Shown one piece after another: positions 573 through 27,606 of a DNA stretch of 64,000 bases. The stretch covers positions 14,818,001 to 14,882,000 of the forward strand of contig CM059449.1 of the NCBI GenBank assembly GCA_030390025.1, given 5' to 3'. Source of the DNA: Squalus acanthias. Lineage: Eukaryota. A program made the translations under genes and the position numbers. Under the pieces are notes generated by a model. It was not told where the DNA came from. It did no database searches and saw nothing but the letters and a program-made list of their open reading frames with translations. Numbering within the stretch: position 1 is the stretch's first letter; the number at the start of each line of letters is the position of its first letter.

Positions 573-713
573 AGACAGTTTCAGTTGCATGCCTCCATAA
601 CGTGCAATGACGTATAATGCTGGAGGCTAACAGGCTAAATGGCTTGAAGATCAATGCTGTAATTCCACCAAACTACACGCAACCTTTTCGTCAGCTGTGG
701 CTGTACGAGGTCT

Positions 714-770
714 TCATTTTCCTTCACTGAAGTTCAATGTACAATATTGTACTTTCTCTACTTTACTTGT
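714..770 (-). CDS. ITIM-bearing terminal exon, copy 1 (TSKVEKVQYCTLNFSEGK*)
   Basis: Acceptor attttacttctcttcaaacag; ITIM VQYCTL; duplicate of 9369-9425. No upstream exons of its own were found, so it may be an orphan. Confidence 0.55.
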   Translation of the reverse strand, partial: TSKVEKVQYCTLNFSEGK

Positions 771-1524
771 CTGTTTGAAGAGAAGTAAAATACATTCATA
801 AATATATTATTAGGCAATGTCGACATAGAGCATCGCAAAACCAAATCGCAAATGCTCAAGCAAGTGCAGCGTTCTCATGTTATATTTCAAGGCTGCCCTT
901 TAAACTTTCAAACCCGCAGCCTGATGTGTTGAAACGGAATCCCAATTATCAGCGGCACTTGTTTTCTTTGCTGGCCGGTTGCTTGCAAGGGTTGTGACAG
1001 AACCAGAAAGGTACGTGCAAAGTCTCAGACTTATGAGCAGTACTGACCTCAGTCTCGATACAGTTCCGCAAACTGCCGGATGCAACTGATGCGAAAACGA
1101 AAGGTTATATATAAAACGCTGCAGACTGAAGGCCGCTGTAGTATTTTAAGAGTGATATTTGTATCCTAACGCATAGCCGACAGGAGGACAGAAAAACCGC
1201 CTTCACGTTAAATAGGTTACTCTGCGAGGCGCTGGGACAGGATTAATTGATCCATTGACGAGGACGTGCTTATGTCAAACACCCTTTATGTCTATAGAGC
1301 ACTGTAGAACTATCCTTCCAATAATACATGATGATATCACTAATAGAGATAAATGCGAAAGTATGAAATGTTGTGACAATACTGTACACATTTTATTAAT
1401 GACAAGTTAATAAGGAAGAGAGCAGTTTCGTTTAACCTTGACTCTTTCCGTGGTAGTACGTTATCTGCAGCGAAATTCAGAAGTGTTCAATTTCCACAAA
1501 TTTTGTTAGTTTCGGATGAGAGTA

Positions 1525-2325
1525 GGCATTCGGGCCATCGAGCTCTTCACTACTGGAAACCCGCAACGAACTGCCTCATCAATGACTTTATAATTGTTGC
1601 CTCCATTGCTCTATCAGGAAGATCATTGCAGGTATTAATCACTCTTTGTGTGAAGTGCTTCCTGGCAGCCATCCCGACTTGCCTTCTATCAGATGGACTG
1701 ACAATGCCTTGTCCTGCACTCATAAGAACATAAGAAATAGGAGCAGGAGTCGGCCATTCGGCCCCTCGAGCCTGCTCCGCCATTCAATAAGATCATGGTT
1801 GATCTTCTACCTCATCTCCACTTTCCTTTTATCCCTTGATTCCCTTAATATTCAAAAATCTATCCATCTCTGTCTTGAATATACTCAACGACTGAGCCTC
1901 CACAGCCCTCTGGGGTAGAGAATTCCAAAGATTCACCACCCTCTGAGTGAAGAAATTTCTCCTCATCTCAGTCCTAAATGGCCGACCCCTTATTCTGAGA
2001 CTGTGACCCCTGGTTCTAGGCTCTCCAGCCAGGGAAAACATCCTCTCCGCAACTACCCTAAAATAATTTTGTATGTTTCAATGAGATCACCTCTCATTCT
2101 TCTAAACTCTAGAGAATATAGGCCTATTCTCCTCAATCTCTCCTCATAGGACAATCCCCCCATCCCAGGAATTAGTCTGGTGAACCTTCGTTGCACTCCC
2201 TCTATGGTAAGTATATCCTTCCTTAGGTAAATCAAGGGATATGGGGATAGTGCAGGATAGTACTCATTGAATGATGGAGCAGGCTCGAAGGTCCAAATGG
2301 CCTACTCCTGCTCCTATTTCTTAAA
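1525..2325 (-). mobile_element. Nested CR1 fragments: old minus 3' end (1525-1718), younger minus CR1 (1722-2230), short plus-strand CR1 3'UTR (2231-2325)
   Basis: ORFs RKHFTQRVINTCNDLP, NFFTQRVVNLWNSLP and YLRKDILTIEGVQRRFTRLIPG; CR1 3'UTR motifs on both strands. Confidence 0.85.
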
Positions 2326-2832
2326 TTCCCGCATTCTCCCGCCACCATCAAGATAGGAGATCAAGTTGGGGTGAATTTTCACCTTTTTGCACCCGCAGTG
2401 CAAGTGAAAACCCATCCCCCACTCTGGTTCATCAGGGACTGTAGAGGGGAATATGAAGATCAACGTCAGGTGTGCTGTAAAATTAAATACTCACCTAGCG
2501 TGGTTACAATGCTGGGCTACCTGCATGCTGTAAGTTGATCTTCATAAATAAATAATTGATTTCACACAATGTGTTCCATTCGTGTAAGCTTCAATTACTG
2601 CAATAAAGTAGGAGGCTCAGTAAATATTTCTGAGGACTAAGGCAGGGGATGTGGATAAGATAGTCGACTGCGAAAATAAAGTGGCAAATGGAATTCAATG
2701 TCAATAAATATGAGGTGGTAACTTCTGGTAAAAAATGAATAAACATTGTGCAATAGCAACAACTTGGATTTAAATAGCGCCTTTAACATAAGAATACAAC
2801 CCTAGGCAATTTTCAGTAGTGGCAATTATCTC

Positions 2833-4900
2833 GGGAACGGTAGCATAGTGGTTATGTTACTGGGCTAGTAATCTGCCAAGGCCTGGACTAATGATCCTCA
2901 CACGACGTGAATTCAAATCCCACCTATGACAAGTGGGGAATTTAATTTCAGTTAATTGAATAAATCTGGAATAGAAAAGGTTGTATCACTAATGGTGACC
3001 ATGCAATAAGATTGCCATAAAAACCATCTGGTCAACTAATGTCCTTTAGGGTAGGAAAACTGCCATCCTTACCTGGTCTGGTCTATATGTGACTCCTAAA
3101 CCCACAGCAACGTGGTTGTCTCCTAACTACCCTCTGAAAGCTGATAAATCCCCAGGGCCTGATAATCTACATCCCAGTAGTACTAAAAGAGGTAGCCATG
3201 GAAATAGTGGATGCATTGGTTTTCATCTTCCAATATTCTATAGATTATGGAACAGTTCCTGCAGGTTGGAGGGTGGCAAATGTAATCCCACTATTTAAAA
3301 AAGGAGGGAGAGAGAAAACAGGGAACTACAGACCAGTTAGCCTAACGTCAGTAGTGGGGAAAATGCTAGAGTCTATTATAAAGGATGTGATAACAAGACA
3401 CTTAAAAATATCAACGGGATTAGACAAAGTCAACATGGATTTATTAAAGGGAAATCGCGTTTGACAAACCTACTTGAGTTTTTTTGAGGATGTAACTGGT
3501 AGAATAGATAAGGGAGAACCAGTGGATGTGGTGTATTTGGATTTTCAGAAGGCCTTTGATAAAGTCCCACATAAGAGGTTAAGGTTAGTGTGCAAAATTA
3601 AAGCACATGGGATGGGGGGTAATATACTGGCATGGATTGAAAATTGGTTAACAGACAGGAAACAGAGAGTAGGACCAAATGGGTCTTTTTCGGGGTGGCA
3701 GGTGGTGACTAGTGCGGTACCGCAGGGATCAGTGCTTGGGCCCCAGCTATTCACAATATATATCAATGATTTGGATGAGGGAACCAAATGTAATATTTCC
3801 AAGTTTGCTGATGACACGAAACTAGGTGGGATTGTGAGTTGTGAGGAGGATGTAAAGAAGCTTCAAGGCGATTTAGACAAGTTGAGTGAGTGGGAAAATA
3901 CATGGCAGATGCAGTATAATGTGGATAAATGTGAAGTTATCCACTTCGGTAGGAAAAACAGAAAGGCAGAGTATTATTTAAATGGTGATAGATTGGGAAA
4001 TGTTCATGTACAAAGGGACCTGGGTGTCCTTGTACACCAGTCACTGAAAGCAAACATGCAGGTGCAGCAAGCAGTTAGGAGGGCAAATGGTATGTTGGCC
4101 TTCATTGCAAGAAGATTTGAGTACAGGAGCAAGGATGTCTTACTACAGTTATACAGGGCCTTGGTGAGACCACACCTAGAGTACTGTGTGCAGTTTCGCT
4201 CTCCTTACCTAAGAAAGGATATACTTGCCATAAAGGGAGTGCAGCGAAGGTTCACCAGACTGATTCCTGGGATGGCAGGACTGTCGTATGAGGAGAGATT
4301 GGGTCGACTAGGCCTGTATTCACTAGAGTTTAGAAGAATGAGAGGGGATCTCATTGAAAGTATAACATTCTGACAGGACTAGACAGACTGGATGCAGGGA
4401 GGATGTTTCCCCTGGCTGGGGGGTCTAGAACGAGCGGTCACGGTCTCAGGATACGGGGTAGGACATTTAGGACTGAGATGAGGAGAAATGTCTTCACTCA
4501 GAGGGTGGTGAACCTGTGGAATTCTCTACCACAGAAGGCTGTGGAGGCCAAGTCACTGAATATATTTAAGAAGGAGATAGACACAAAAGTCAACAAGCGG
4601 TATGGGGAGAGAGCAGGAATATGGTATTGAGATAGAGGATCAGCCATGATCATATTGAATGGCGGAGCAGGCTTGAAGGGCCGAACGGCCGACTCCTGCT
4701 CCTATTTTTCTATGTTTCGAAATGGCCTAGCAAGCCACTCAGTTGTACACAACTGCCTAAAACCACTGTGGGAGTAACTTTATCACAAGCACTGCAATGG
4801 TTTAAGTGGTGGCTCACTGCCACTTTCTCAAGGGCAATTAGGGATGGCCAATAAATGTTGGCCTTGCCAATGACGCCCACATCCCAGGAACGAATTAAAA
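2833..4900 (+). mobile_element. tRNA-derived SINE (2833-3137 and 4719-4900) split by a CR1 insertion
   Basis: A box tagcatagtgg and B-box-like aattcaaatcc. The halves rejoin as ccctctgaaa|tggcctagcaag, and the same family is largely intact at 54818-55205. Confidence 0.8.
3138..4718 (+). mobile_element. CR1 LINE, 5'-truncated, RT domain plus 3'UTR, with frameshifts
   Basis: YRPVSLTS, YLDFQKAFDKVPH, VPQGSVLGP and FADDTKL motifs. Confidence 0.95.
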
Positions 4901-4904
4901 AAAA

Positions 4905-5222
4905 ATCAGACAAAAATAAACACTGATTAATAAGCAGGAGATATTAGAGGGTAACAGCTTGGTAAAAGTGGTGTGTTTTAAGGAGGACTTTGAAAGAGGA
5001 GGGGGTGGAGGGAGGAAATTCTTGTACAGAGGGTCCAGGTGGCTGGAGGCATGACTGCCACTGGTGGGCGAAGGGAGTGTGGGATGCTGAAGAGGCTACA
5101 GTTTGAGGAACACAGTACTCAGAGGCTTGTTGGGTTGAAAAAGATTACAAAGATGAAAAGCGACAAGGCTTTGAAACAATTTTAACACAATTAAGGGAAT
5201 TATAAATTCAAGGCATTGGACG
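4905..5222 (-). mobile_element. Old L2-like LINE 3' fragment (continues 2755-2825)
   Basis: aacaacttg..tta.atagcgcc tail at 2757 and degenerate purine-rich L2-type 3' region; family recognised from memory. Confidence 0.5.
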
Positions 5223-5244
5223 ACCAATGCCTTGTCCTACAGTT

Positions 5245-5595
5245 ATAAGAACATCAAAATTAGGAGCAGGTGTAGGCCATTCGGACCTTCAAGTCTGCGC
5301 TGCCATTCAATAAGATCATGGCTGATCTTCTACCTTATCTGCGCTATCCCCATATTCCTTAATACTCAAAAATCTATCTATCTCTCTCTTGAATATAATC
5401 AACGACTGCGCCTCCACAGCCCCTCTGGGGTAGAGAATTCCAAAGATTCACCACCCTCTGAGTGAAAACATTTCTCCTCATCTCAGTCCTAAATGGCCGA
5501 CCTCTTATTCTGAGAATGTGACCCCTGGTTCTAGACTCCCCAGCTAGGGGAAACATCCTCCCTGCATCTACCCTGTCACACCCTGTACGAATTAT
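5245..5595 (-). mobile_element. CR1 3' end (duplicate of 155-520)
   Basis: Same 3' junction and same 5' truncation point (ccctgtaxgaatt) as 155-520. Confidence 0.85.
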
Positions 5596-8238
5596 AGAGT
5601 CAGAGTCATAGAGTTATACAGCACAGAAAGAGGCCCTTCGGCCCATCGTGTCCGCGCCGGCCATCAAGCCCTGTCTGTTCTAATCCCATTTTCCAGCACT
5701 TGGTCCGTAGCCTTGTATGCTATGGCGTTTCAAGTGCTCATCTAAATGCTTCTTGAATGTTGTGAGGGTTCCTGCCTCTACCGCCCTTTCAGGCAGTGAG
5801 TTCCAGATTCCAACCACCCTCTGGGTGAAAAAGTTTTTCCTCAAATCCCCTCTAAACCTCCTGCCCCTTACCTTGAAACTATGCCCCCTGGTTATTGACC
5901 CCTCTACTAAGGGGAAAAGTTCCTTTCTATCTACCCTATCTATGCCCCTCATAATTTTGTACATCTCAATCAGGTGTACCCCCTCAGCCTTCTCTGCTCT
6001 AAGGAAAACAACCCCAGCCTGTCCAGTCTCTCTTCATAGCTGAAGCGCTGCAGCCCAGGTAAAATCCTGGTGAATCTCCTCTGCACCCTCTCCAATGCAA
6101 TCACATCCTTCCTGTAGTGTGGCGACCAGAACTGCACACAGTATTCCAGCTGTGGCCTAACTAGCGTTTTGTACAGCTCCATCATAACCTCCCTGCTCTT
6201 ATATTCTATTCCTCGGCTAATGAAGGCAAGTATCCCATATGCCTTTTTAACCACCTTATCTACCTGTCCTGCTGCCTTCAGGGATCTATGTACATGCACA
6301 GCAAGGTCCCTCTGATCCTCTGTCCTTCCTAGGGTCCTACCATTCATTGTGTATTCCCTTGCCTTGTTAGTCCTCCCAAAATGCATCACCTCACACTTTT
6401 CAGGGTTAAATTCCATTTGCCACTGTTCTGCCCATCTGACTAACCCGTCTATATCGTCCTGTAGCCTGAGGTTTCCCTCCTCGCTATTTACCACCCCACC
6501 AATTTTTGTGTCATCTACGAACTTACTGATCATACCTCCTACATTCATATCTAAATCATTAATGTACACTACAAACAGCAAAGGATCCAGCACCGATCCC
6601 TGCGGTAAACCACTGGACACAGGCTTCCAGACACAAAAACAACCTTCGACCATCACCCTCTGCCTCCTGCCACTAAGCCAATTTTGGATCCAATGTGTCA
6701 AGTTGCCCTGAATCCCATGGGCTCTTACCTTCTTGACCAGTCTCCCATGCAGGACTTTGTCAAAAGCCTTACTGAAGTCCATGTAGACCACATCAACTGC
6801 ACTAACCTCATCCACACATCTCGTTACCCCCTCGAAAAATCCAATCAAATTGGTCAGACATTATCTCCCCCTGACAAAGCCATGCTGACTATCCTTGATT
6901 AATCCTTGCCTCTCCAAGTGGAGACTAATTCTGTCCCTCAGAATTTTTTCTAATAATTTCCCTACCACTGATGTTAGGCTCACTGGCCTGTAATTCCCTG
7001 GTTTATCCCTACTACCCATCTTGAATAATGGTACTATGTTAGCTGTTCTCCAGTCCTCTGGCACCTCCCCTGTGGCCAGAGAGGTTCTGAAAATTTGTGT
7101 CAGAGCCCCTGCAATCTCCTCCCTTGCCTCACACAGCAGCATGGGATACATCTCGTCTGGGCCTGGGGATTTATCCACTTTTAAGCCCGCTAAAACCGCT
7201 AGTACCTCCTCCCTCTCAATACTAATTTGTTCAAGTATATCACAATCCCCCTGCTTGATTTCTATGCCTACATCGTCCTTCTCCATAATGAACACAGATG
7301 CAAAATATTCATTTAAAACCCCACCTACATCTTCTGGCTCTACACACAGATTGCCACTTTGGTCTCTAATGGGCCCTACTCTTTCCCTGGTTATCCTCTT
7401 GCCCTTCATATACTTATAAAACACCTTGGGATTTTCCTTTATTTTGCCTGCCAGTGTTATTTCATGCCCCCTCTTCGCTCTCCTAATTTCTTTTTTAAGT
7501 ACCCCCCTGCACTTTCTATACTCCTCTAGGGCTTCCACTGTTTTTAGTCCTTTGTATCTGCCAAAAGCATCCCTTTTATTCCTAATCCATTCTCGTATAT
7601 CCCTTGACATCCAGGGTTCCCTGGGCTTGTTGCTCCCACCCTTGACCTTTACGGGAACATGTTGCCATTGCACTCTCTGTTTTTCCTTTCTGAAAGACTC
7701 CCACTGCTCTGATGTGGATTTTCCTACAAGTAGCTGATCCCAGTCCACTTTGGCCAGATCCTGCCTTCTCATATTAAAATCGGCCTTCCCCCAATTTAGA
7801 ACCTTTATTTCCGGTTCATCTTTGTCCTTTTCCATGACTACCTTAAATCTCACCGAATTATGGTTACTGTCACCAAAATGCTCTCCTACTAACACTTCTA
7901 CCACTTGCCTGGCTACATTCCCTAGAATTAGGTCCAGTACCGCCCCCTCTCTTGTAGGACTTTCTACATGCTGGCTCAAAAAGCTCTCCTGGGATGCACT
8001 TTAAGAATTCCGCACCCTCTAAGCCTTTCACACTCTGACTATCCCAGTTAATATTGGGGAAGATGAAATCGCCTACTATTATTACCCTATTATTTCTACA
8101 CTTCTCTGAGATTTGCCTACATATCTGTTCCTCTATCTCCACCTGACTGTTTGGGGGCCTATAGTACACTCCCAGCAAAGTGCTTGCCCCCTTTTTGTTT
8201 TTAAGTTCTACCCATATGGCCTCATTAGAGGAACCTGC
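5596..8238 (-). mobile_element. CR1 LINE, 2.6 kb, APE endonuclease C-terminus plus RT, different subfamily
   Basis: ORFs 7870-8178 (GVYYRPP, GDFxFP), 6861-7979 (LDL, SxHN), 5970-6848 (RT), 5680-5964; (gagtcata)n tail; probable TSD gaattat. Confidence 0.95.
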
Positions 8239-8284
8239 AAAGAATTATGTATGGATGGATCTATTAATGGATGTATGGATGTAT

Positions 8285-9192
8285 TTCTGAGTCAATCAAG
8301 CGACCTCACAGAGTTCTTGGACAAGACACAAATAGGCAGCAGCCAGTATATTTGAGCAATAGATCAGATTTATTAAGCTTACAGCATAAGTAATATTTAA
8401 CATTAGGCGATGGTAAAATAAATAGCTCACAGCCCTTGGTCTCTGGAGCCTTTCAGACACAGGCAACATCATCGTAAGTCTGTTCCTTTCTTCACAATAA
8501 ATCTCTGTGTGAAGTTGTTCTTTGAGTATCGAGGTTTTAACCCTTTTCTTCCCAACAGTTCGTTTGGCAGTGTCTTTAACAAAATCATCTTCTTTAATTG
8601 GTTCTAATGGTCAAAATACCATTGTCACTCAGTTCAGGCTAGTAACCTGGCCACTCTTTTTCCAGTACTTTTCCCCTAACTCTGCCCCACTGTCTTGTTA
8701 TCTTGTTTATAGCTTTTCACCCCATTGCAATTTATCATAGCTCTTTCATTTCATGTCTCCCTGGTCCAAGGCCTTTATACCTAGGGCCCATATCAGCGCT
8801 ATTTCACTTGTCTTGAGGTATCCAGACTATCTCACTTTAATCTACCAGATAAATACCTTAACTTCCATGGTCTCTCTCATTTTATGTCCTTATACTAATT
8901 ATCCTTTAAATATTGTTGCAATTAGTTTTGTTAAGCGAACTCTAATTTCTACTTACCATTATAATATGTTATTTAACAATTTGACCTTCACTCGCAGGCT
9001 GTGGCTGTTTGTTATCAAAACTTAGTCAAAACTGCTTTTGACTGTCTTTGCAGCTGCATTCTGAACAAGTCTTAGCTTTTTAGTTACCCAGGAGTAATTA
9101 TGGGTAATATTATTTGGTCAATGGCTACACTTGAAGTTATACATATATGATTCTCGTCTACTAAATATCTTTAAATATCATCCTTTCCTACA
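8285..9192 (-). mobile_element. Probable solo LTR (ERV/Gypsy-type), 908 bp
   Basis: Minus strand starts TGTAGG; 4-bp direct flank gtat on both sides; AATAAA at 8369-8374 near the 3' end; absent from the duplicated copy near 520-575. The 3' terminus reads AA rather than the canonical CA. Confidence 0.55.
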
Positions 9193-9368
9193 GTATGTAT
9201 GTATGTATGTATGGATGAATGGACGGATGTCAGTTTCAGTTGCATGCCTCCATAACGTGCAATGACGTATAATGCTGGAGGCTAACATGCTAAATGGCTT
9301 GAAGATCAATGCTGCAATTCCACCAAACTACACGCAACCTTTTTGTCATCTGTGGATGAATGGGTTCT

Positions 9369-9425
9369 TCATTTTCCTTCATTGAAGTTCAATGTACAAT
9401 ATTGTACTTTCTCTACTTCATTTGT
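9369..9425 (-). CDS. ITIM-bearing terminal exon of an inhibitory-type receptor, copy 2 (TNEVEKVQYCTLNFNEGK*)
   Basis: Acceptor attttatttctcttgaaacag; phase-0 frame contains VQYCTL (V/I/L/S-x-Y-x-x-L/V). Near-identical copy at 714-770. Upstream partner exon not established. Confidence 0.6.
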   Translation of the reverse strand, partial: TNEVEKVQYCTLNFNEGK

Positions 9426-9658
9426 CTGTTTCAAGAGAAATAAAATGCATTAATAAATATATTAATTTCAAGAAAATCAAAATGTTGTTGTATTTGTTTT
9501 AGTCGAACAACATGATAAATATGTATTCATATAATAGAGATATTTATTGTGTATAGGCGCATTTCATGTCCAACTTCCTTTGTCACAGTTTTTCCTCAGA
9601 ACTTTATGTCAAATGTAGCATTGAAACTTTAAAATGAACATCCAACACTTATGGGTAT

Positions 9659-11822: not shown

Positions 11823-12389
11823 AACTCGATCTCTATCTTGTATGTAAGATATATATTCATCTACTGACCGTGGGCGGCGTCATGGGCAATTTACTAATCT
11901 TCTTTCAGTTTCTTAGCATCATGAAAATATATAATACGACAATAATATGTTTAGCATTTCATATAAATAACCCTGGATTGATTGATTATCAGAATTATTG
12001 CTATTAATAATAACATTTAATATCTATGTATTTTCTGGTGTTACAAATGCATTAATTGGTTTTAATTGGGAATGACAGAAACTAAAAAGACCCTGGGCTT
12101 TGATCATTGATCTGTTCTTTTAGCTGAGGTCGGTGGGGTGTAGCAGGACGGGTGCTACAATTGATCTTAGTAACCCTTGGCTAGGGAGGTGAGAAATCAG
12201 CCATAGTAGACTTAATCACTATCGGGTGCCTGTTGCAAAGTGCAACTGCAGTCAGGACAAGAAAGGGCTTCGCTCTGATGTTCATTACAGCTCTGAAACC
12301 CGACGACGCTCACTCTCCAGGCTCACATCTAACGAATCAACACTAGTGTACGGTGCCGATGGACAACTGGCACCTCTAGAACCATAATC

Positions 12390-12888
12390 TTCAGGTTCAC
12401 GAGGTTGATTCCTGAGATGAAGGGGTTGTCTTATGAGGAAAGGTTGAGCAGGCTTGTGCCTATACGCATTGGAGTTTAGAAGAATGAGAGGTGATCTTAT
12501 TGAAACATATAAGATTCTGAGGGGGCTTGACAGGGTAGATGCTAAGAGGATGTTTCCCCTTGTGGGGGAATCTAGAACTAGGGGGCATAGTTTCAGAATA
12601 AGGGGTCGCCCATTTAAAACGGAGATGAGGAGGAATTTCTTCTCTCAGATGGTCGTGAATCTTTGGAATTCTTTACCCCAGAGAGCTGTGGAGGCTGAGT
12701 CAGTGAATATATTCAAGGCGGAGATAGACAGATATTTGATCTACAGGGGAGTCAAGGGTTGTGGGGAACAGGCAGGAAATTGGAGTTGAGGCCAAGATCA
12801 GATCAGCCATAATCTCATTGAATGGCAGAGCAGGCTCGAGGGGCCGAATGGCCTACTCCTGCTCCTACTTCTTATGTTCTTATGTTCT
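12390..12888 (+). mobile_element. CR1 3' end
   Basis: ORF 12454-12789 plus 3'UTR and tail. Confidence 0.9.
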
Positions 12889-13630
12889 AAACCCAACAGG
12901 AATGCAGAAATGAATAAAGAAAGGTTTCAAAAAAATATATAGATGATTCTGTATTTTGATTGAAGCCTGAAATGCAGCCAAATTAAACTGCAGTGGTCAA
13001 CATTGGGAAGAAATTGGTACAGATAGTTTTGTAATTGAAAAAAGATTGTAACGGTAAATTATTCCAGAAGGCCATTGAATGGAAAAGGTTTATTCAGATT
13101 GACTTGAAGTCTGCTAATGAAATACTGCTGTTGATAATTTATGTATTGTAGCAATATTAGCTTTTGGCCTTTGTTTGTTAACTAAACAATTTTACAGTCG
13201 TGACCACTGTACGTTTGAACTGAGACTGACCCTAAGGCACTGGTAGGTTTTAATCTGAAGTAACCATCTTCTTAATGAGGAATCTTAATTAAGGACGTGC
13301 CATTGCACATTGGTTCATCAGTTTCAAGAAGCTCTAATCAATGACATGGATGCAAAGACAACAGTTAGTCTGAAAAAGGAAAACATCTGAGTAAATATTA
13401 TCGTTTTTAATTCGGGGTTGTGTAGCATGAGGGAATGAACTGCTGCCGAATGGCACAGAGTAAAAGACAAACTTATAATTAATCGTTTCGCTTGTTGAAA
13501 TAGCAATTATATGTAACAAGAGACCAATTATTGACAAGATAATGAACTGTGAAAAGTTATACTGATTTCGTTAGCCCAATAGAAAATAGCATGTTATAAG
13601 GACACCAATTTATTAATTGATGGTGTTGAT

Positions 13631-13757
13631 AAGAACATAAGAACATAAGAAATAGGAGCAGGAGTCGGCCATCCGGCCCCTCGAGCCTGCTCCGCCATTC
13701 AATAGGATCATGGCTGATCTTCTACCTCAACTCCACTTTCCTGCATTATCCCCATAT
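13631..13757 (-). mobile_element. CR1 3'UTR fragment
   Basis: (taagaaca)n tail and 3'UTR stem. Confidence 0.85.
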
Positions 13758-15651
13758 AGGTCAATTAGATTCATCTTATATGGAGTTGCATTTTTGGTAG
13801 AATCATGGTGTTCGGGTGAGAGAAGCATATTAAAAAAGTGACTGTTTGTAATGAGCATTGGAACTAGAAAGAGTTTGATCAAACTAAAATACTGAGCTCA
13901 GAGTTGTATTCCGTTTCAATCCCCATCCACCATGTGTGGTTGTAAGCATTATCTTTTAAGTGTATGTTTAAGTAATTTTACATATACTGTATGCTCAATA
14001 AATCTATGAACGCTTGACCTCGACGACTTAAGAAACTTTTTGATTTTGACGAATCGATTAAAAAAATCTAAGCACAAATAAAACCCATCATCCAACAGGT
14101 ATCATTGTGTTCAAGGACATATGCTCATGCATGCTCATTTGAGGTGTCAGGTACCTGATTGTCAACTCTGCACCGAGGTCCTTGGTCACCTTTATCTGTA
14201 TGAGGTGTAGAGGGGAGGAAAAGTAGAATGTTAGAAAGATCAGTGACCGGGAATCGCCACTCAGCACTTCCAGGCTCGCCCTCTTATGATTCTAACTCAT
14301 GCAGTCTAACATCCAACTGGGTATTATCACACAATTTAAAAAAACACAATTATAATATAGATATTATATCGATATACAAAAAGTAAACTGCTTATATTTA
14401 TAGGCAGTCCGGAGCAAGTGTCGTTTTCAGGTGAAGGGTGTAGAAGGCTGGAGAATATTTGGAGCCAGTTCCTGGAAATATAATTCAGTCGCATTCAGTA
14501 ATGCAATCTGACCATATATACTTTGATTTTATATTAGTACTTATAGTTAAATAGTAAAAATGACTACAATTTGGGAAGCTGAGATGAGCTGATTGGAGTA
14601 CAGGAATTCCCTGTAGTACTGGCGAGGCGCTGCGAGACGCAGAACTGAGGCGTGACCAGGCCACCACTGGTGGAAGCATGTAATTGCAGTGTGACAAGTG
14701 CATAGACCATTCTAAACGTGTGGAAATAGGAGTTTATAATTAGAAAACGTTGACCCAAAAGTGTGACAAATACGTGAAACAGAAAGTAATATTTTTCAAA
14801 TAGAAAGGGTATGCAGAGGTAATATATTAACAAATAGTGGATGAAACCATATGTCCATGTTTATGAAAACAACTGGGAACCTAAACTTGTACCGCTGAAA
14901 TGACACCGTCCCATCAGTGGTGGCGCTGTAACGCCTCAGTTTTGTATCTCCCAGTTCCTCAGACTGTACTTCAGAAATATATATTGTTCAAAATCTTATG
15001 TCTGGTCCATTTATCTCCCCTTTCTAACCCCACTTCAGCTGAAGAGTAAACTTGTTCTTGACTGCCCGTGTGTAACACCGCAGGCAATTAATTAGTAGAA
15101 CAGAATAAATATATATTTTAAAATATTTGAATATATTTGATTTAATATTAGTAAATTATTATTAAGTAAAATAATGGGGGGGGGGTTTCTTGTTGATTGT
15201 TTATAGTGAAATAGCAAACATGTTATATCGCAGGCATGCTTATATTTTCACAATAAATAACTAACAGTCAAAGTCACAATAAAACGGTGGAATGCAAACC
15301 ATTTTTCTTAAATTACGAGAATTACATTTGGGATTGTGAACAGTTACGGTGTTTGTGTAAAGAGTGATAAGCTTCATATATCCTCTTGAATGATTTCACT
15401 TTCCTATTTGAACATATGGGGAAATTAGGAGAATTAAAATGTGGCATCAAGAACAGGGAGAATCTTATCTTCCCTGTGACTGGTCTACCCCTACAGATCC
15501 CAGTGATGAGTCAGATTGGCTGATGAATCATCAACAGTCCCCTGGAGAGTGAAGACCAGCCTGCGCCACATGTAGAAACAATTATCAATTTGTTGTTGAA
15601 GTTTGTCATTAAAATAAGCTACTTGATCCACTGTGTTAACCTTGATAGTCA

Positions 15652-18639: not shown

Positions 18640-19050
18640 GACAATTGTGATAATAATGGGAAAATTGCTTTTTTTTAGCTATGTTAAGAGTCTGTGGACC
18701 ATCAAAGGCGGCAGAGATGTTAAATGAGTACTTTGCATCAATCTTCACTCTTGAAGACAATGCTCAGCTAACAGCAATAAGTTGTGCTGGTAGCAGTAAA
18801 ATTGTTAATATTAAAATGGATGAGGATAGCGTGGACAGAGTAACGAAGCTTAAAATAGATCGGGCTGCCGGCCCAGATGAAATCCACCCGCAGGTCTTTG
18901 AAGAATTGGGGACCGGTGCGATGCCAGCTCCTTGCCTCCAGCTTTAATAGTTCCTTAGAGTCGGGGACTATTCCCTCAGACTGCAAGGATGCTAATATCG
19001 TTCCAATTTTTTTAAAAAAAGGCTGATAAAGCAGAGCCGGGTAACGAAAC
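18640..19050 (+). mobile_element. Old degenerate CR1 ORF2 fragment
   Basis: AEMLNEYFASIFT...KLKIDRAAGPDEIHP. Confidence 0.75.
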
Positions 19051-19741
19051 GCACGTCAGTATTGACTTCAGTCGGATGCTCGAAGGTATTCTCACGTTCT
19101 GCTGTTGGTGGCGTTCTGCCTTTCAGTAGTTCGTGTTTGGAGACACATTTCCATTTGTAGCTGTAGAATAAGTTACCGGTGGCAATCCACATAATGAAGA
19201 GGTAATCACGGGGCGATGCACTGCACACATGGCGTGTGATAGTGTGGGCGAGCCTCGCATGCAGGTGGGAAGCAGCTTAGCAGAAATAGGTGGGTGTACG
19301 GCCCGCTATTTTCCGTCTAATGCATGGGAAATCGAGGTGAAAGCCGCGTAGAGCCATCGAACACTCCCCCCCACTCACAGGTCTCTATACCGCGAGACAC
19401 GTGGTTTAGCATCAAGTTCTCCTTATTGTACTGTGGTTTATTTTGCACGGGATCCAGCATGCAATACACTCGGATTTTTCACACTCTATTAACTTGGGAC
19501 GTTTTACTATGCTGAATGCTCTATATAGATGTAAGTTGTTGTTACTGCACAGATAATTCTGATTTCCCTACCCGAAATACCGGGGGCTGGATGGTGGAAG
19601 TCTGTGGTAGTGTTTGAACAGTCCTCTTGGGGTTAGTGGAGCCGGAGAATATCGACCTCCTCTCATCAAACCCTTGCAGCCTCCCCGTGGAAATAAAAGC
19701 AATACTTTCAGTGTATCACATACCGGCTACTAATTTCGGGG

Positions 19742-19870
19742 GACAAAAGCAAAACACTGCGGAGGCTGGAAATCTGCAATAAAAACAGAAAATGCTGGAA
19801 ATACTCAGCAGGCCAGGCAGCATCTGTGGAGAGAGAAACAGAGTCAACGTTTCAGGTCGATGACCTTTCG
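19742..19870 (+). mobile_element. Penelope-like terminal repeat fragment; related copies at about 56210-56325 (+), 58843-58895 (-) and 59712-59822 (-)
   Basis: ctggaaatctg.aataaaaacagaaaatgctggaaatactcagcagg.caggcagcatctgtggagagagaaacagag recurs four times; family assigned from memory. Confidence 0.55.
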
Positions 19871-20976
19871 GGGTTATTCCCTCAGTGCTGGTCCTGTTTT
19901 TCCTGTCTGCGGGAAGTATTCAGGAAGCCACGAGCATACAGCTTTCGCCTACCGTGCTGTTGTCCTAAGAGATCACCAAACGCACCATCTTGTTACAGTG
20001 ATATACTTCACTTGTTTTTTTTTAATTGAAAAATCAATACGAAGGGCCAAGGAACGTAATACAGGAAACTTTCAAAGTTCAAAAAAGAGTTGAGAGAACA
20101 ATAACAATCAATAAGTCACGTCAGATGATTCAAAACTTGGGCTCTACCAGATTGTAGGTTGTAGGTGGAAGACAAGACTGGGGGACGTAGTTTGTTCCTG
20201 GGACTGACTTTTGGTCAGCCAACTGTCTAAGGTGCAGAGGTCCACCATCAAGCTGAAGAATCTACTAGCCAAACTAGAGAAATCCACACGATCAGGATTC
20301 TGTTTGCCCATTGAGGAGTGCACACTCTGGAACGCATTCTAATTACCCAAGTCCAACTTGGCAATAGCCAAGGTCTCGGGACCTTCAAGTGTGTGCAGGG
20401 GTGATGCTGTGCTAAGCCATCGGAAATCACACTCAAGCACAGAGCGATGACAAGCTTCTTGCTGACCATCCAACCAGATCCACCTTGTCCATTACTAAGA
20501 TGGTTAGCCGGGTTCCTGGACACAGTCGGTCGAGTCCCAACTCCCAGTGCCAGATCTGTCCCTCCAGCTTGAATGAATGAGCCAGGCTGCCCGCTCGTTC
20601 GTCAATAGTGTCCTGGTGTGCTACAGACCTGCCTGGGCCAGGTTTCGAAAATCGTCTCTGCCACATGCTCGGTTCCAATATTCCTGCGCAATTCATGTCA
20701 CCATGGAGGCACCACGAGGTCACAGAAACCTTCTTCGGAGGAGAATAATCACCATCTGCTCCTGAGAATGAATGAAACAATGTGTGATGGCTCTCGACAG
20801 CAACACAATGGGGGCAATTCTAACCCAATTCGTCCGTCGGGAAACTGACGGGATCGGATGCAACGCTGAGTAGGTCGGATGTCAATTTGTATTGACCTAA
20901 ATATGCATAATTACCATGAACTACGAAGAAAACCTTATATGAGAAATGGCCTAATTAGGCACAAAGCTTATAGTTT

Positions 20977-21605
20977 AGAGGACTGGAGTATAAAAGTAGG
21001 GAAGTCCTGTTACAACTGTACAGGGCGTTGGTGAGACCACACCTGGAGTACTGCGTACAGTTTTGGTCTCCTTATTTAAGGAAGGATATACTTGCATTGG
21101 AGGCAGTTCAGAGAAGGTTCACGAGGTTGATTCCGGAGATGAAGGGGTTGTCTTATGAAGAAAGGTTGAGCAGGTTGGGCCTATACTCATTGGAGTTTAG
21201 AAGAATGAGAGGGGTTCTTTTTGAAACATATAAGGTTCTGAAGGGGCTTGACAGGGTAGATGCAGAGAGGATGTTTCCCCTCGTGGGGGAATCTAGAACT
21301 AGGGGGCATAATTTCAGAATAAGGGGACACCCATTTAAATCGGAAATGAGGAGGAATTTCTTCTCTCAGAGGGTCGTGAATCTTTGGAATTCTCTTCCCC
21401 AGAGAGCTGTGGAGGCTGGGTCATTGAATATATTTAAGGTGGAGATAGACAGATTTTTGAACGATAAGGGAGTCAAGGGTTATGGGGAGCGGGCAGGGAA
21501 GTGGAGTTGAGGCCAAGATCAGATCAGCCATGATCTTATTGAATGGCGGAGCAGGCTCGAGGGGCCAAATGACCTACTCCTGCTCCTATGTCATATGTTC
21601 TAATG
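20977..21605 (+). mobile_element. CR1 3' end
   Basis: ORF 21028-21510 plus 3'UTR. Confidence 0.92.
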
Positions 21606-22209
21606 AATGCAGGTTTTAAGGGGTGTATAGAGAACAATGAAATGAAAATAAAACGGGCATTCATTATTTAGGTTTAATTGGATTTTAAGATATTTATGAC
21701 AATTAACAAATCATACTGTGTAAAAGTGCTTGCTACTTTTACTTCCATCCAGACGTGCTTGGAAATAGTATTGAGTTGCATCTAAACTTGGACTCTTATC
21801 AAATCGCTAGACTTTCTTCACTCCATGTCACACTTTTTCGTACTTAGGTTGCACATCATGTTTTAATATGTAGATCCCCGAATTAACAGTGGATTGAAAT
21901 ACTTAGCCAAATTGGCAATAGCCACTCTATGGGAATAAAACCTCCCTTACGTTTATCCTTTCGGCCACTTTTGCTTCCTGTTTCCGCTCTGCCTCCCAGA
22001 CTTTCTCAAGCCCCACACACTCCAGTTCCTGCTCTACCCTTTCCCGCTAGATCCCAGCTTGTTCTTATCAGACTCACGACCGCCATGAGACATACCATCG
22101 ACTACTCAGAGTCCCTCTACCACCAACTCAACTGCCTCCTTTCAATGTAGTCCTGCCTCTCCTCAGGCATTGTACCTCTCTCAAAAAACTGTCCCCGTCA
22201 TCCTCTTTC

Positions 22210-24217
22210 ACAAAAAGCCCTCTGGATGACGAAAGAGATAGAGAATATGATGAAGCAGAAAAAGAGCACGTATGACAGATGTCAGGTTGCAAATACAGCT
22301 GAGAATCAGGCTATATATCGAAAGGTCAGAGGAGAAGTGAAAAAGGAAATAAGAGGGGCAAAGAGAGGGTATGAGAATAGAATGGCAGCCAACATAAAAG
22401 GTAATCCAGAAGTCTTCTATAGGCATATAAATAGTAAAAGGGTAGTAAGAGGAGGGGTGGGGCCGATTAGAGACCAAAAAGGAGACCTACGCATGGAGGC
22501 AGAAGGTGTGGCTGAGGAACAAAACGAGTACTTTGCATCTGTCTCCACCAAGTAAGAGGATACTGCCATAGACATAGTGAAAGAGGAGGTAGTGGAGACA
22601 CTTGATAGGATAAAAATTGATAAAAAGGAGGTATTAGAAAGGCTGGCTGCACTTAAAGTAGATACATCACCAGGAGCGGATGGGATGCTATCTTGGATGC
22701 TGAGGGAATTGAGGGAGGAAATCGCGGAGGTACTGGCCATAATATTCTAATCCTCCTTGGATACAGAGGTGGTGCCAGAGAACTGGAGAATTGCAAATGT
22801 TACACCGTTGTTCAAAAAAGGGTGTAACGATAAACCCAGCAACTACAGGCCAGTCAGTTTGACCTCGGTAGTGGGGAAGCTTTTAGAAACAGTAATCGGG
22901 ACAAAATTAACAGTCACTTGGACAAGTATGGATTAATTAAGGAAAGCCAGCACGGATTTGTTAAAGGCAAATCGTGTTTAACTAACTTGATTGAGTTCTT
23001 TGATGAGGTAACAGAAAGGGTTGATGAGGGTGATGCGGTTGACGTAGTGTACATGGATTTCCAAAAGGCGTTCGACAAAGTGCCACATAATAGGCTTGCC
23101 AGCAAAGTTGAAGCCCATGGAATAAAAGGGATAGTGGCCCCATGGATACGGAATTGGCTAAGTGATAGGAAACAGAGAGTAGTGGTGAATGGTTGTTTTT
23201 CAGACTGGAGGAAGGTGTACAGTGGTGTTCCCCAGGGGTCGGTTCTAGGACCACTGCTTTTCTTGATATATATTAATGACTTGGACGTGGGTGTACAGGG
23301 CATAATTTCAAAATTTGCAGATGACACAAAACTTGGAAGTATAGTGAACAGTGAGGAGGAGAGTGATAGACTTCAGGAAGACATAGACAGGCTGGTGAAA
23401 TGGGAGATGTGGCAGATGAAATTTAATGCAGAAAAGTGTGAAGTGATACATTTTGGTAGAAAGAATGAGGAGAGAACATATAAACTAAATGGTACAATCC
23501 TGAAGGGTGTGCACGAAGAGAGAGACCTGGGGATATGTGTGCACAAATCGTTGAAGGTGGCAGGGCAGGTTGAGAAAGCAGTTAAAAAGGCTTACGGGAT
23601 CATGGGCTTCATAAATAGAGGTATAGAGTACAAAAGTGTGGAAATTATGATGAACCTGCATAAAACACTGGTTTGGCCCCAACTGGAGTACTGTGTCCAA
23701 TTCTGGGCACCAAACTTTAGGAAGGATGTGAAAGCCTTAGAGAGGGTGCATAAAAGATTTACGAGAATGGTTCCAGGAATGAGGGACTTCAGTCACGTTG
23801 ATAGACTGGAGAAGCTAGGGTTGTTCTCCTTGGAGCAGAGAAGGTTGAGAGGAGATTTGATAGAGATGTTCAAAATCATGAGGGGTCTGGACAGGGTAGA
23901 TAGAGAGAAACTGTTCCCATTGGCAGAAGGGTCGAGAACCAGAGGACACAGATTTAAGGTGATTGGCAAAAGAACCAAAGGCGACGTAAGAAAAAACTTC
24001 TTTACGCAGCGAGTGGTTAGGATCTGCAATGCACTGCCTGAAAGGGTGGTGGAGGCAGATTCAATCACGGCTTTCAAAAGGGAGTTGGATAAGTACCTGA
24101 AGGAAAAAAAATTGCAGGGCTACGGGGAGTGGGACTAGCTGAAGTGCTCTTGCAGAGAAGGCACAGGCTCGACGGGCCGAATGGCCTTCCTCCGTGCTAT
24201 AACCATTCTATGATTCT
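22210..24217 (+). mobile_element. CR1 LINE, 2 kb, inserted in an old L2 fragment (about 21950-22209 and 24290-24500)
   Basis: 406-aa RT ORF 22918-24138 and (attctatg)n tail; flanks show degenerate L2 RT sequence (TxLVKVTxDI). Confidence 0.93.
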
Positions 24218-24714
24218 AAGCCCAACTTGGATGTTTCTATCCGCTTCAGATATGCATCTAACTCTAAAGTTCTCATCCTGTCTAAGGTATCTAGACGCAT
24301 CTGAACACCTAACTCTCTAACCACCCCGTTTGCATCACTCATTCTGTCCTGCCCACACCACCAAGACTACCCTGGTGAAGGTCACCAGTGATATCCCATT
24401 GTGATTGTAGTCATGGTGCGATATCCTTCATCATCTGCAGCGATCAACATAGTTGATCATTATTTCGCCCATTGCCTCTCATCTGTGATTCACCCCTGCG
24501 GCACTGTCTATCTTAGTAACACTCCCAATGTAACGGTACTGATTCTCCAATATCCTTTCCTCCTGTTTCCCTATGGTCACCCCCAGCGAGTGGCAAATTT
24601 GGCAAAGGTCCATATTTTATTGGCTTCTTGTCCTCACGTGCATGCTAATACTCCATGACACCACCCACAAACATAGAGCCAACTTTCACATGCATTCTGA
24701 TGAGACCCAACGTT

Positions 24715-24937
24715 AATTCTCTACCCCAGAGGGCTGTGGAGGCTCAGTCGTTGAGTATATTCAAGACAGAGATCGATAGATTTTTGGATATTAAGGGAAT
24801 CAAGGGATATGGGGATAGTTCAGGAAAGTGGAGATGAGGTAGAAGATCAGCCAAGATCTTATTGAATGGCAGAGCAGGCTCGAAGGGCCAAATGGCCGAC
24901 TCCTGCTCCTATTTCTTATGTTCTTATGTTCTTATGT
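24715..24937 (+). mobile_element. CR1 3' end
   Basis: NSLPQRAVEAQSL..., 3'UTR and (ttcttatg)3 tail. Confidence 0.9.
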
Positions 24938-26144
24938 AATTACCCGCACTGCATGGCCATCCCATGCTGTCAGATGTACCTATTGGGCAACAAGTCCTGG
25001 ATGCCCCGGAACCCTCTGTAACTCAACATCAGCAAGATTGAAGCCACCCTGTTCGACCTCCACCAGAAAGTTGGCGCCCCGGGTTCTGGTCCTCTTTCCT
25101 GACTGTTCACGTGCCCCGAACCTCCAGGTGGGTAACTATGCAAAGCAAAGGAGATGTAACGTGAGATAACGCATCAAGGTCACAGTCACATAGGATATCA
25201 TTGGTAACGTTGAACCGAGCTGAACTCGAAACCCCACCTTACGTTCATGGGACTTAGGGGAGGGAGCACTACTTTGCACCTGACAGCGATTAGCTGGCAG
25301 GGTCGGTTATGATATTTAATGCACCCACCACCTCTCCCCCCTCAAATTAATACACCTTATAAATGGCACTGCTGCTTATCTCTAATGACGCCAGTGTTTT
25401 CCAGAGCGCTTCATTCACCCCCAACTCCGGCATCAATGACTATCGATATGATAATCTAATTCTTTGAAATCTATGAGATACTTTGTTTTGCGTTAATATT
25501 CCACAACAAAGGAAAACATCAATGATCAAACTTAAAACTGCTGTACAACGAACCTTAGTCATCACTCCAATTGAACAAATGCTGCGAATTCCTGAAATAT
25601 AATTGATGCAACATAATTAGTATTATGCAGCTTCATACAGTCTTGCTATGCAGTTGATTTCCCCCCTCCCTTTGTTTCCTTCTCGTTTTCTTTCAGGTTC
25701 TTGCTGGAATATACTTGCATGGACATCTCTCCAGTACCTAATCCAGACCATCATGCTTCTTGTATGAGGTCAGACAGTGAGGGAGAGTTAAGGCAGAGCC
25801 ATCATTTTTCTGCCCCAGTAGCTGGACTTATCGAACCCCCTGGGCTCGGACAAACCGCAGTTGGAGGCGGGGTGGGAGGGAGGGGAATGAGGCTCCACTT
25901 CGAACATGGGCGCCTCTACGCGCAATTTTCCTTTACTCTCTATGCCTAGGCGATCCAATAGTCCAAGGCACAAGAACAGGGACATCAGTCCATATATTTC
26001 GTTCCAGCAATTTAAAATCACCCAGGTTATAAAATCAGTGACTGATTTATTTGTGAAACAGTGTTTGTACTCTGCCTTCTCTTTGCTTTTATTGTTATCT
26101 TTGCAGTATTTCCGAGTTTTGTAATGTGATCTCTTATATGCTAG

Positions 26145-26548
26145 TCATAGAATCATTCAGGACAGAATGAGGCCATTCGGCCCATCGTGCCAGTGCCAGC
26201 TCTTTGACAGAGCTATCCAATTAATCCCACTCCCCGGCTCTTTGCTCACAGCCCTGCAATTTTTTCTTTCCAAGTATATATTGAATTCCCTTTTGAAAGT
26301 TACTGTTGAATCTGCTTTCACCACCCTTTCAGGCACTGCATTCCAGGTCGTAACAATTCGCTGAGAACAGAACAATCTTCTCACCTCCCCTGGCTTTTTT
26401 TTTGGCCAATTATCTTAAATCTGTGTCCTTTAGTTACCGACCCTCTAGCCAGTGGAAACAATTTCTCCCTATTAACTCTATCAAAAACCTTCATAATTTT
26501 GAACACCTCTATTAAATCTCCCTGTAACTTTCTTTGCTCCAAGGAGAT
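26145..26548 (-). mobile_element. CR1 3' end
   Basis: ORF 26157-26384 (QRIVTTWNAVPERVV). Confidence 0.85.
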
Positions 26549-26667
26549 TACTAATTAATTAATTACTAATGATCTCTAAGGAGATTATTAATCAATGAAC
26601 AAAAATCCTCCAGAAAACGATTAGAATGTCCCCTTAACTTTGGGTGTATGCATGCAGTGAGGACTAA

Positions 26668-26690
26668 TCAGAAAGGAAAATCTATGCAAG
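26668..26690 (-). CDS. Candidate terminal coding exon giving a short cytoplasmic tail (ACIDFPF*)
   Basis: T-rich acceptor tttttatttgttattttatattttag about 0.8 kb after the TM donor; phase-1 reading G|CT TGC ATA GAT TTT CCT TTC TGA. Minus-strand AATAAA at 26088-26093 and 26046-26051. Confidence 0.5.
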
Positions 26691-27501
26691 CTAAAATATA
26701 AAATAACAAATAAAAATTACGCTTGTGGCTGAGACATTCAAAAACTTGTGCTGTTTGTCTCAGGAATCAACAATGGAAATGCGTTCTTTCTCTCTTATTA
26801 GATGATGCTAGTAGTCTCTGCAATCCAAAGGTTGAGCCTAGTGTTCATACATTTCAACAGGTAAATGCTATTGCTCTATAGCTACGCAACTTTTGTTGTG
26901 TAGCCATCGAAGGGAGGACAAAATAGGTAAAATAGTCAACATGTAGACTCATGTTAACCTTAGTGTTTCAAATGTTTTAGATATTCCACAACATAAAATG
27001 ACTCATAAACTGATTTAAACATTAAATAACATAAAACGATTCCTAATTTGGCACTATGTTCTCAATGTGACCCAGACAGACTGTAAATATAGGCGATGTG
27101 GGCAATGGAAAAGTCACATCGAAACAACAGACAATTCTTCTGAGATAACAGCTGAAGTGCATTGTTTGAGGAGAAATAGAGTAGAGGAAGCTTCACCAAC
27201 AGTGATTTCAGGCTGAAATTACACCTGGACTGCTTAATGTGTTTGTCAGAAATTCCTTCCTCCGCTATTTTACCAAAGTGTTAACCCATGCTTTTTAAAC
27301 TGGATAACATCTCCACTAAAGTAGGGGCAAAGGAATTTCAGAGAAATGTGAACACATTCATGTGCCGTTATCCGATGGAGTGACTAGCGTTGTACTGCCC
27401 AGTGTTAACTTCTGCCACCTGGATGACGGCAAAATTCAGAGAAAACATTATCAATTCAAAACTTTAAGACTATATTCTCAATAGATATTGAATAATCTTA
27501 C

Positions 27502-27606
27502 CTCCCATTCTCCAGAAGAAAATGCCGATGATCACTGTGATGATAACCACACCTCTAACAATATACAGAATCGCGTTTGTGGTCAGATGAATCAAACTCG
27601 GTTTCT
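27502..27606 (-). CDS. Stalk/transmembrane exon of the NCR3-like gene with intramembrane Arg
   Basis: 105-nt phase 1-1 exon (acceptor ctaatag, donor GAG|gtaaga) encoding EKPSLIHLTTNAILYIVRGVVIITVIIGIFFWRMG. The hydrophobic span has an Arg near its outer end, as in NKp30, and is in frame with the V exon. Confidence 0.8.

What the first reader, a model, noticed from the sequence alone, without database searches (positions are those of the whole stretch)
651..27606. Arg-TM activating receptor with same-strand ITIM tail exons downstream: switchable or paired receptor system
Seen: ITIM exons lie 18 kb and 27 kb downstream of the Arg-containing TM exon on the same strand, and no other V or TM exon was found in between. 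Known: receptors combining a charged TM and an ITIM exist (KIR2DL4, NKp44), and human NCR3 changes function through alternative last exons. Inference: either one gene chooses between a short activating tail and ITIM tails by alternative 3' exons, or the ITIM exons are relics of deleted inhibitory paralogues. Caveat: the TM exon ends in phase 1 and the ITIM frame starts in phase 0, so a linker exon of length 3n+2 is required, and I did not find one.
Basis: partly seen in the sequence, partly recalled or inferred. Interest (0 to 1): 0.8.

Follow-up and report, generated by a model that had tools for sequence, protein, structure and literature searches.

The report
Shark NKp30 gene, orphaned inhibitory tail
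A shark immune-receptor gene of the NKp30 family, with an activating-type membrane anchor and likely its own short ending, is followed by the headless but still in-frame tail of an inhibitory sister gene, likely a duplication leftover that could let the receptor borrow an off-switch.

Summary
The missing linker exists: 14195-14155, 41 nt (3n+2), splice sites intact. The gene ('B') is a single-V NKp30/NCR3-family gene in a cluster of at least 68 related V exons. Linker plus ITIM exons are an inverted, headless copy of the 3' end of the neighbouring inhibitory gene C (flanks 92-96% identical). In two other sharks such tails carry two ITIM exons in series, so the two copies are not alternatives, and they encode nearly the same peptide. 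A basking-shark orthologue points to B's own last exon at 25135 (nine residues, no tyrosine, AATAAA at 24621). Best reading (0.55): an activating receptor followed by the relic tail of a deleted inhibitory paralogue. A regulated switch between short tail and one-ITIM tail stays open (0.25); no RNA evidence was obtainable. B's V exon is frameshifted in this assembly but open in another sample.

The parts
52713..52755 (-). Gene B leader exon, ATG at 52755 to phase-1 donor
   Evidence: 82% identical over 39 nt to the leader of paralogue A
50582..50925 (-). Gene B single VJ-type V exon, NKp30-like; one base short at about 50724 in this assembly (frameshift)
   Evidence: a contig of run X1 has one extra base there and no other difference over 50637-50787
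31163..50349 (.). 45-bp satellite, 427 copies, in the V-TM intron of gene B
27502..27606 (-). Gene B stalk and transmembrane exon with Arg (27556-27554), strong phase-1 donor
   Evidence: 70% identical over 27 aa to Cetorhinus XP_078422539.1; single copy
24621..25135 (-). Likely native last exon of gene B: acceptor 25135, stop 25109-25107 (nine-residue tail, no Tyr), AATAAA at 24621; an exonised antisense piece of an old LINE
11823..15450 (-). Inverted copy of the TM-to-ITIM intron of gene C (window-scale 77466-81083), 151 substitutions in 3597 aligned bases
14155..14195 (-). Linker exon, 41 nt (3n+2), phase 1 to 0, identical to the linker of gene C, AG and GT intact
9369..9425 (-). First ITIM exon copy, 18 codons with VQYCTL, then TGA; lies in a 421-nt block 92% identical to C's last exon and flanks
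   Evidence: also held in run X1
714..770 (-). Second ITIM exon copy, same motif and stop, three private coding changes, no AATAAA/ATTAAA within 2 kb downstream
60203..60245 (+). Likely leader exon of inhibitory gene C, head to head with gene B; C's four V exons, uncharged TM, linker and two-ITIM last exon lie beyond the window end (window-scale 68.5-81.5 kb)

Best explanation
Gene B is a single-V NKp30-family gene with an arginine in its membrane anchor that likely ends at its own short last exon and likely signals as an activating receptor, while the linker and two ITIM exons further downstream are a headless inverted copy of neighbouring gene C's inhibitory tail, likely left by a deleted paralogue and likely not part of B's main transcript. 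Shown: the exon anatomy, the homology of the tail to gene C, the absence of any V or TM exon belonging to the tail, and the open frame from B's TM donor through linker into the first ITIM exon. Inferred: splicing of the TM donor to the exon at 25135 with polyadenylation near 24621; pairing of the Arg with an ITAM adaptor (CD3zeta or FcRgamma) as in human NKp30; loss of the paralogue's 5' half; at most minor read-through splicing into the orphan tail.
For: (1) Cetorhinus XP_078422539.1 has B's V (73/112 identical, more than to A1, A3, A4) and B's Arg-TM (70%). Its tail maps to 25126-24983: 44.7 bits against a maximum of 23.1 in 200 shuffles, and it is the best of 4 matches genome-wide, E 1.8e-4 against 0.3. 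(2) Acceptor at 25135, stop after nine residues, AATAAA at 24621, 10.4 kb before the linker. (3) The C-like block starts abruptly inside an intron, 204 nt past C's TM donor, with no V or TM remnant. (4) Two ITIM exons in series are the layout of one C-type tail in Heterodontus XP_067865381.1 and Carcharodon XP_041069025.1. (5) Linker identity is not beyond chance: P = 0.17 at the block's 4.2% divergence, and two longer identical runs lie in plain intron. (6) Of 40 listed relatives with a predicted TM segment, the seven with an Arg inside it (P0008, P0014, P0017, P0023, P0114, P0161, P0162 by my reading of the table, plus mammal-like P0119 and P0148) show no ITIM in the tail. (7) The 770 copy has three private coding changes and no polyA signal within 2 kb.
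Against: The orphan tail shows no decay where it would matter: acceptor, donor, frame and Tyr are intact. The 9425 exon has 0 private changes in codons 1-18 against 3 in the 10 codons after the stop (small numbers, not significant). It is 15/18 identical to Carcharodon's first ITIM exon but 13/18 to gene C's, although its flanks match C. Its stop falls where Carcharodon's last exon stops, so it need not be a lesion. Heterodontus XP_067865388 joins an A/B-clade V and uncharged TM to a C-type linker and ITIM exon, so tail capture has a precedent in this cluster. The Cetorhinus protein is an automatic gene model with a doubtful N-terminus. The 25135 exon is LINE-derived, and its long frame in Cetorhinus is shifted here.
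Confidence: 0.55

Rival explanations
1. Switchable receptor by tail capture. B's TM donor chooses between the near exon at 25135 (short activating tail) and the captured linker plus 9425 exon (Arg-TM with one ITIM), so alternative last exons change the signal, as in human NKp30a-c or NKp44-1 versus -2/-3.
For: All parts exist and are in frame. Heuristic acceptor scores of 25135, 14195 and 9425 are alike (3.8, 4.3, 4.3). No private coding change in the 9425 exon. ATTAAA/AATAAA lie 0.5-1.0 kb after its stop. Tail capture precedent in Heterodontus.
Against: A polyA signal lies 10.4 kb before the linker. C's own AATAAA (window-scale 81756) lies outside the copied block. Linker conservation is not significant.
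Confidence: 0.25
2. Constitutive dual-signal receptor. B always splices TM to linker to 9425 and works like KIR2DL4 (TM arginine plus one ITIM); the LINE-derived segment at 25135 is only intron.
For: The linker is the only open 3n+2 exon on that strand at the thresholds used. The 25135 segment is an old repeat whose long frame is not kept. The Cetorhinus tail may be an unsupported prediction.
Against: The orthologue's tail begins at the homologous acceptor right after the homologous donor. The C-like block looks like a truncated duplicate. None of the Arg-TM relatives listed has an ITIM.
Confidence: 0.12
3. Gene B is a dead or null gene here, or the juxtaposition is an assembly product, so neither tail matters.
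For: The V exon is frameshifted in this assembly. The TM acceptor is weak by my heuristic (0.5). The junction between B and the C-like block was not checked in other samples.
Against: A contig of run X1 has the frame open with no other difference. Three distinct ITIM-exon contigs are present in X1. There is no N in 264 kb around the locus. V and TM are conserved with Cetorhinus.
Confidence: 0.08

Closest known systems
NKp30/NCR3 family (human NCR3; nurse shark NCR3 subtypes, e.g. QTT61898.1 and QTT61904.1)
   Same: Single-exon VJ-type V domain whose paralogue A3 (89/113 identical to B) hits human NKp30 structures first, E 1.7e-17 against 2.9e-8 for the next family. Arg in the N-terminal part of the TM. 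Short motif-free tail predicted. Human NKp30 uses its TM Arg to bind CD3zeta/FcRgamma (PMC6514059, passages).
   Different: Here the family is a cluster of at least 68 V exons with multi-V and ITIM-bearing inhibitory members. B has an orphan ITIM tail downstream. Ligand and adaptor are untested.
KIR2DL4 and NKp44-1 (charged TM plus ITIM in one chain)
   Same: The in-frame TM-linker-9425 product would have a TM Arg and one ITIM, 32 tail residues. KIR signalling domains were reshuffled by recombination (PMC2213150, passages).
   Different: Different gene families. The product here is only a prediction. NKp44-1's ITIM did not recruit SHP-1/2 in one study cited in PMC6514059, so even a real isoform need not inhibit.
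Human NCR3 alternative exon-4 isoforms (NKp30a, b, c)
   Same: Same family; one TM donor with more than one candidate last exon (PMC6514059 and PMC12272517, passages).
   Different: The human last exons belong to one gene. Here the distal option is a copy of another gene's tail, 13-18 kb away, behind a polyA signal.
Paired-receptor clusters with birth-and-death turnover (KIR, Ly49; Siglec and CD300 pairs seen only in search listing)
   Same: Activating (Arg-TM: B, F) and inhibitory (uncharged TM, ITIM: C) relatives side by side, in both orientations, with partial duplicates. B's V is 83-89/113 identical to the V domains of gene A, whose TM has no Arg or Lys inside and whose tail has Tyr motifs.
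   Different: B's V is only 41-44 of about 109 identical to C's, so B would pair with A by ectodomain while the orphan tail comes from C.

Membership tests
NKp30/NCR3 family | Non-rearranging V domain with V and J strands in one exon | tested here: met
   One exon 50925-50582 with both cysteines and the G-x-G-T strand; Pfam V-set on both halves
NKp30/NCR3 family | Closer to NKp30 than to other Ig-superfamily V domains | tested here: met
   Tested with paralogue A3 (89/113 identical to B): the 4 best of 92 PDB matches are NKp30; the tree groups the cluster with named shark NCR3 proteins
NKp30/NCR3 family | Arginine in the transmembrane segment | tested here: met
   Codon 27556-27554, conserved in Cetorhinus
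NKp30/NCR3 family | Short cytoplasmic tail without signalling motif | tested here: inconclusive
   Predicted from the 25135 exon or from read-through; no cDNA
NKp30/NCR3 family | Association with CD3zeta/FcRgamma and binding to B7-H6 | not tested
   No complex prediction run; needs experiment
NKp30/NCR3 family | Linkage to the MHC | not tested
   No MHC genes were sought on this contig
KIR2DL4/NKp44-1-like dual-signal receptor (working type) | Charged TM residue and ITIM in the same polypeptide | tested here: inconclusive
   Frame open across TM, linker and 9425 exon; no transcript
KIR2DL4/NKp44-1-like dual-signal receptor (working type) | ITIM phosphorylated and recruiting SHP-1/2 | not testable with these tools
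   Motif matches the consensus only
Alternative-last-exon switch as in human NCR3 | Two or more last exons used from one TM donor | tested here: inconclusive
   Candidates at 25135 and 14195/9425; use not shown
Alternative-last-exon switch as in human NCR3 | The two ITIM exons give functionally different tails | tested here: not met
   15/18 identical, one ITIM each, same stop; serial in orthologues
Relic of a deleted inhibitory paralogue | Homology to an intact inhibitory gene's 3' end, with no own V or TM | tested here: met
Relic of a deleted inhibitory paralogue | Neutral decay of the coding parts | tested here: inconclusive
   770 copy 3 private coding changes; 9425 copy and linker none

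The most novel reading that the evidence does not exclude
An activating shark NKp30 has captured the inhibitory tail of a deleted sister gene and uses it as a regulated alternative last exon, so one gene flips between a pure activating receptor and an arginine-plus-ITIM receptor: an NKp30 on/off splice switch built by exon capture, independently of the human NKp30a-c system.
Probability: 0.25. Interest if true: 0.6.

Novelty: new member of a known kind. Interest (0 to 1): 0.35.

Why it matters
As most likely read, this is ordinary turnover in a paired-receptor cluster. It still shows that shark NKp30 is a large family with activating and ITIM-bearing inhibitory members and with tails moving between genes, unlike the single human gene. 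If the orphan tail is used, it would be a caught-in-the-act case of how a dual-signal or switchable NK receptor arises (tail capture rather than point mutation), in the family thought to be the oldest NK receptor. The exact junctions to test are now known, so one RT-PCR settles it.

Tried and rejected
RNA evidence. The run search listed no holder on record as RNA. Two runs guessed to be RNA of organism A (X21, X22) had no cover over the V exon, leader or 9425 exon. This is no evidence for or against expression. Run X5 did not cover the frameshift site.

Candidate exon at 51917-51760 resembling a V start: rejected, it is a palindromic repeat with further copies. A plus-strand exon-like piece at 26802-26860 was first taken for an inverted linker: it has no relative in the genome or in about 660 kb of the cluster and is not needed once 14195 was found. 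'Premature stop means pseudo-exon': dropped, because Carcharodon's last ITIM exon stops at the same codon. 'Linker under selection': not significant. Direct TM-to-9425 splicing: stops after two residues.

Homologue searches by word index were thin: 2 hits, 0 hits, and self only. The first tree lacked outside sequences through a pattern slip. The second lacks Cetorhinus, which was compared pairwise instead.

Papers: Kinlein 2021 (shark NCR3), Flajnik 2012 and Ohta 2015 are not held. Both look-ups in earlier scan findings were empty. No fold or complex prediction was run, as it would not decide the splicing question.

Full report
Setting. The window is G000:C26:14818001-14882000 of a 3.7-Gb genome. 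All close protein relatives found are from sharks and rays, so I call it a shark genome by inference. Coordinates outside the window are given on the window's scale. I read 100 kb on each side and 400 kb more of the cluster.

The observation. It holds on the minus strand. A 105-nt exon at 27606-27502 encodes a stalk and a hydrophobic segment with an arginine (27556-27554) and ends in a strong phase-1 donor. Two phase-0 exons at 9425 and 770 encode 18 residues with VQYCTL, then TGA. A profile of 30 family V domains finds only the V exon at 50925-50582 among 2177 six-frame segments, and seven family TM peptides find only the exon at 27.6 kb. The ITIM exon has 3 copies genome-wide by DNA and by protein search.

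The gene. Leader (52755-52713), one VJ-type V exon, a 19-kb 45-bp satellite and the Arg-TM exon make gene B. Its V exon lacks one base near 50724 in this assembly. A contig from run X1 has one extra base there and no other difference over 151 bases, so this is an assembly slip or a null allele. Paralogue A3 (89/113 identical to B) matches human NKp30 structures first (E 1.7e-17; next family 2.9e-8), and the tree places the cluster among named shark NCR3 proteins. A search with A3 gave 73 matches, 69 rows on C26 between 13.47 and 17.14 Mb. Two rows are halves of B's exon, five have stops, and only 150 of 381 candidates were scored, so 68 V exons is a lower bound. Neighbours: gene A (plus strand, -50.4 to about -10 kb; four V exons 86-91% identical to B's, TM without internal Arg or Lys, Tyr-motif tail). 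Gene C (plus strand, likely leader at 60203, four V exons, uncharged TM at 77146, linker at 78710, last exon at 81356 with two intact ITIMs). Gene F (Arg-TM and stop in one exon).

The missing linker. Window 11823-15450 is an inverted copy of C's intron 81083-77466 (151 substitutions in 3597 bases), and 9231-9651 copies C's 81549-81130 at 92%. Inside lies an exon at 14195-14155, 41 nt, identical to C's linker with both splice sites. It is 3n+2 long, and TM, linker and either ITIM exon read in one frame to a 32-residue tail with one ITIM. The block begins abruptly 204 nt after C's TM donor and carries no V or TM remnant: it is a headless tail. Three distinct ITIM-exon contigs in run X1 show that the copies are not an assembly duplication. 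The adjacency to B rests on this assembly alone.

What other sharks show. A search of 1.84 billion representatives (29 of the top 150 read) gave four informative proteins. Cetorhinus XP_078422539.1 is B's orthologue: V 73/112 identical, more than to A1, A3 or A4, and TM 70%. Its tail maps to 25126-24983, 2.4 kb below B's TM exon: 44.7 bits against at most 23.1 in 200 shuffles, best of 4 matches genome-wide. There is an acceptor at 25135. In this genome the phase-1 frame stops after nine residues without tyrosine, and AATAAA follows at 24621. The segment is an antisense piece of an old LINE and the Cetorhinus protein is an automatic model, so this is good positional evidence, not proof of use. 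Heterodontus XP_067865381.1 and Carcharodon XP_041069025.1 are C-type genes whose linker is followed by two ITIM exons in series, and Carcharodon's second stops after 18 residues like the window's. So the two window copies mirror one serial tail and are not rival endings. Heterodontus XP_067865388 joins an A/B-clade V and uncharged TM to a C-type linker and ITIM exon. That is both a precedent for tail capture and a candidate for the kind of gene that lost its head here.

Is the orphan tail maintained? The signals are mixed and weak. Linker identity has P = 0.17 at the block's divergence. The 9425 exon has 0 private changes in codons 1-18 and 3 in codons 20-29; the 770 copy has 3 and 4. The 9425 peptide is closer to Carcharodon's (15/18) than to gene C's (13/18). 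The exon differs from C more than its flank does (13/87 against 15/226, p = 0.005). This fits old exon variants with homogenised flanks, not simple decay of a young copy. In run X6 (organism B) one contig covers the exon with C-like flanks. 35 of its 38 differences are listed and none falls on the stop codon, a weak hint that the stop is older than this species. The 770 copy has no polyA signal within 2 kb; the 9425 copy has some 0.5-1.0 kb downstream. Splice scores are my own heuristic from recalled frequencies and serve only for ranking.

Mechanism. Most likely (0.55) B splices TM to 25135, ends near 24621 and signals through an ITAM adaptor by its arginine, as human NKp30 does (PMC6514059, passages), with the downstream tail a relic. 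A regulated choice between the short tail and the one-ITIM tail (0.25), a constitutive KIR2DL4-like receptor (0.12), and a dead gene or assembly product (0.08) remain. Exon anatomy, homology and frame are shown. Splicing, adaptor binding and ITIM function are inferred or untested.

Comparison and novelty. B meets the three sequence features of the NKp30/NCR3 family that I tested; ligand, adaptor and MHC linkage were not tested. Charged-TM-plus-ITIM receptors, recombined signalling domains (PMC2213150, passages) and tail-switching NKp30 isoforms (PMC6514059 and PMC12272517, passages) are known kinds. PMC12227049 and PMC10751288 (passages) mention shark NCR3 only as an MHC-linked VJ gene. Seven searches (listings and abstract starts) showed no paper on ITIM-bearing shark NKp30 or tail capture. 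However, the main shark NCR3 paper (Kinlein 2021; title seen in a reference list) and its supplements could not be read. From recall only, it describes eight divergent subtypes, and it may already cover inhibitory members. I therefore make no claim that these are unreported. Verdict: a real, well-defined arrangement, a new member of a known kind, interest 0.35, with a cheap decisive test and a one-in-four chance of a more interesting switch.

Noticed in passing
G000:C26:13.47-17.14 Mb: At least 68 NKp30-like V exons in one 3.7-Mb cluster (69 of 73 rows, 150 of 381 candidates scored), with several subfamilies in both orientations and five rows with stops. A very large expansion compared with the single human gene.
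   Followed up: partly
window 60203 (+) and window-scale 68.5-81.5 kb (L004, L005): Inhibitory gene C, four tandem V exons, starts inside the window head to head with gene B, 7.4 kb between start codons. Its last exon has Gly where the window copies have TGA and gains a second ITIM (VAYSLV) past the point where orthologues splice.
   Followed up: partly
window 31163-50349 and window-scale -39.8 to -31.5 kb: A 45-bp satellite fills the V-TM intron of gene B (427 copies). An array with apparently the same unit fills the V-TM intron of gene A (15-residue repeat), which fits common descent of A and B.
   Followed up: no
window 15407-about 15345 (-) and window-scale 77509 (+): A likely dead cytoplasmic exon in both gene C and its copy: it resembles the 21-residue exon after the TM in Heterodontus XP_067865381.1 but has AA in place of the acceptor AG.
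   Followed up: partly
window 26802-26860 (+): Single-copy, 59-nt open exon-like piece with good acceptor and donor on the strand opposite to gene B, 640 nt below its TM exon. It is the only such piece on that strand in 18 kb, with no relative found. Unexplained, may be chance.
   Followed up: partly
window 822-2230 and window-scale -2726 to -1984: Inverted 91% copies of the region upstream of gene D (93.7-95.5 kb) flank the 770 exon, so the duplicated segment ran beyond gene C's end and was partly repeated in tandem.
   Followed up: no
P0023 (Chiloscyllium plagiosum XP_043533794.1): C-type V domains with an Arg-bearing TM and short tail: an activating counterpart of the C type in another shark.
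   Followed up: no
window 51746-51940: Palindromic repeat element that mimics an exon with a V-like start; further copies at window-scale -27.3 kb and 68.3 kb.
   Followed up: yes
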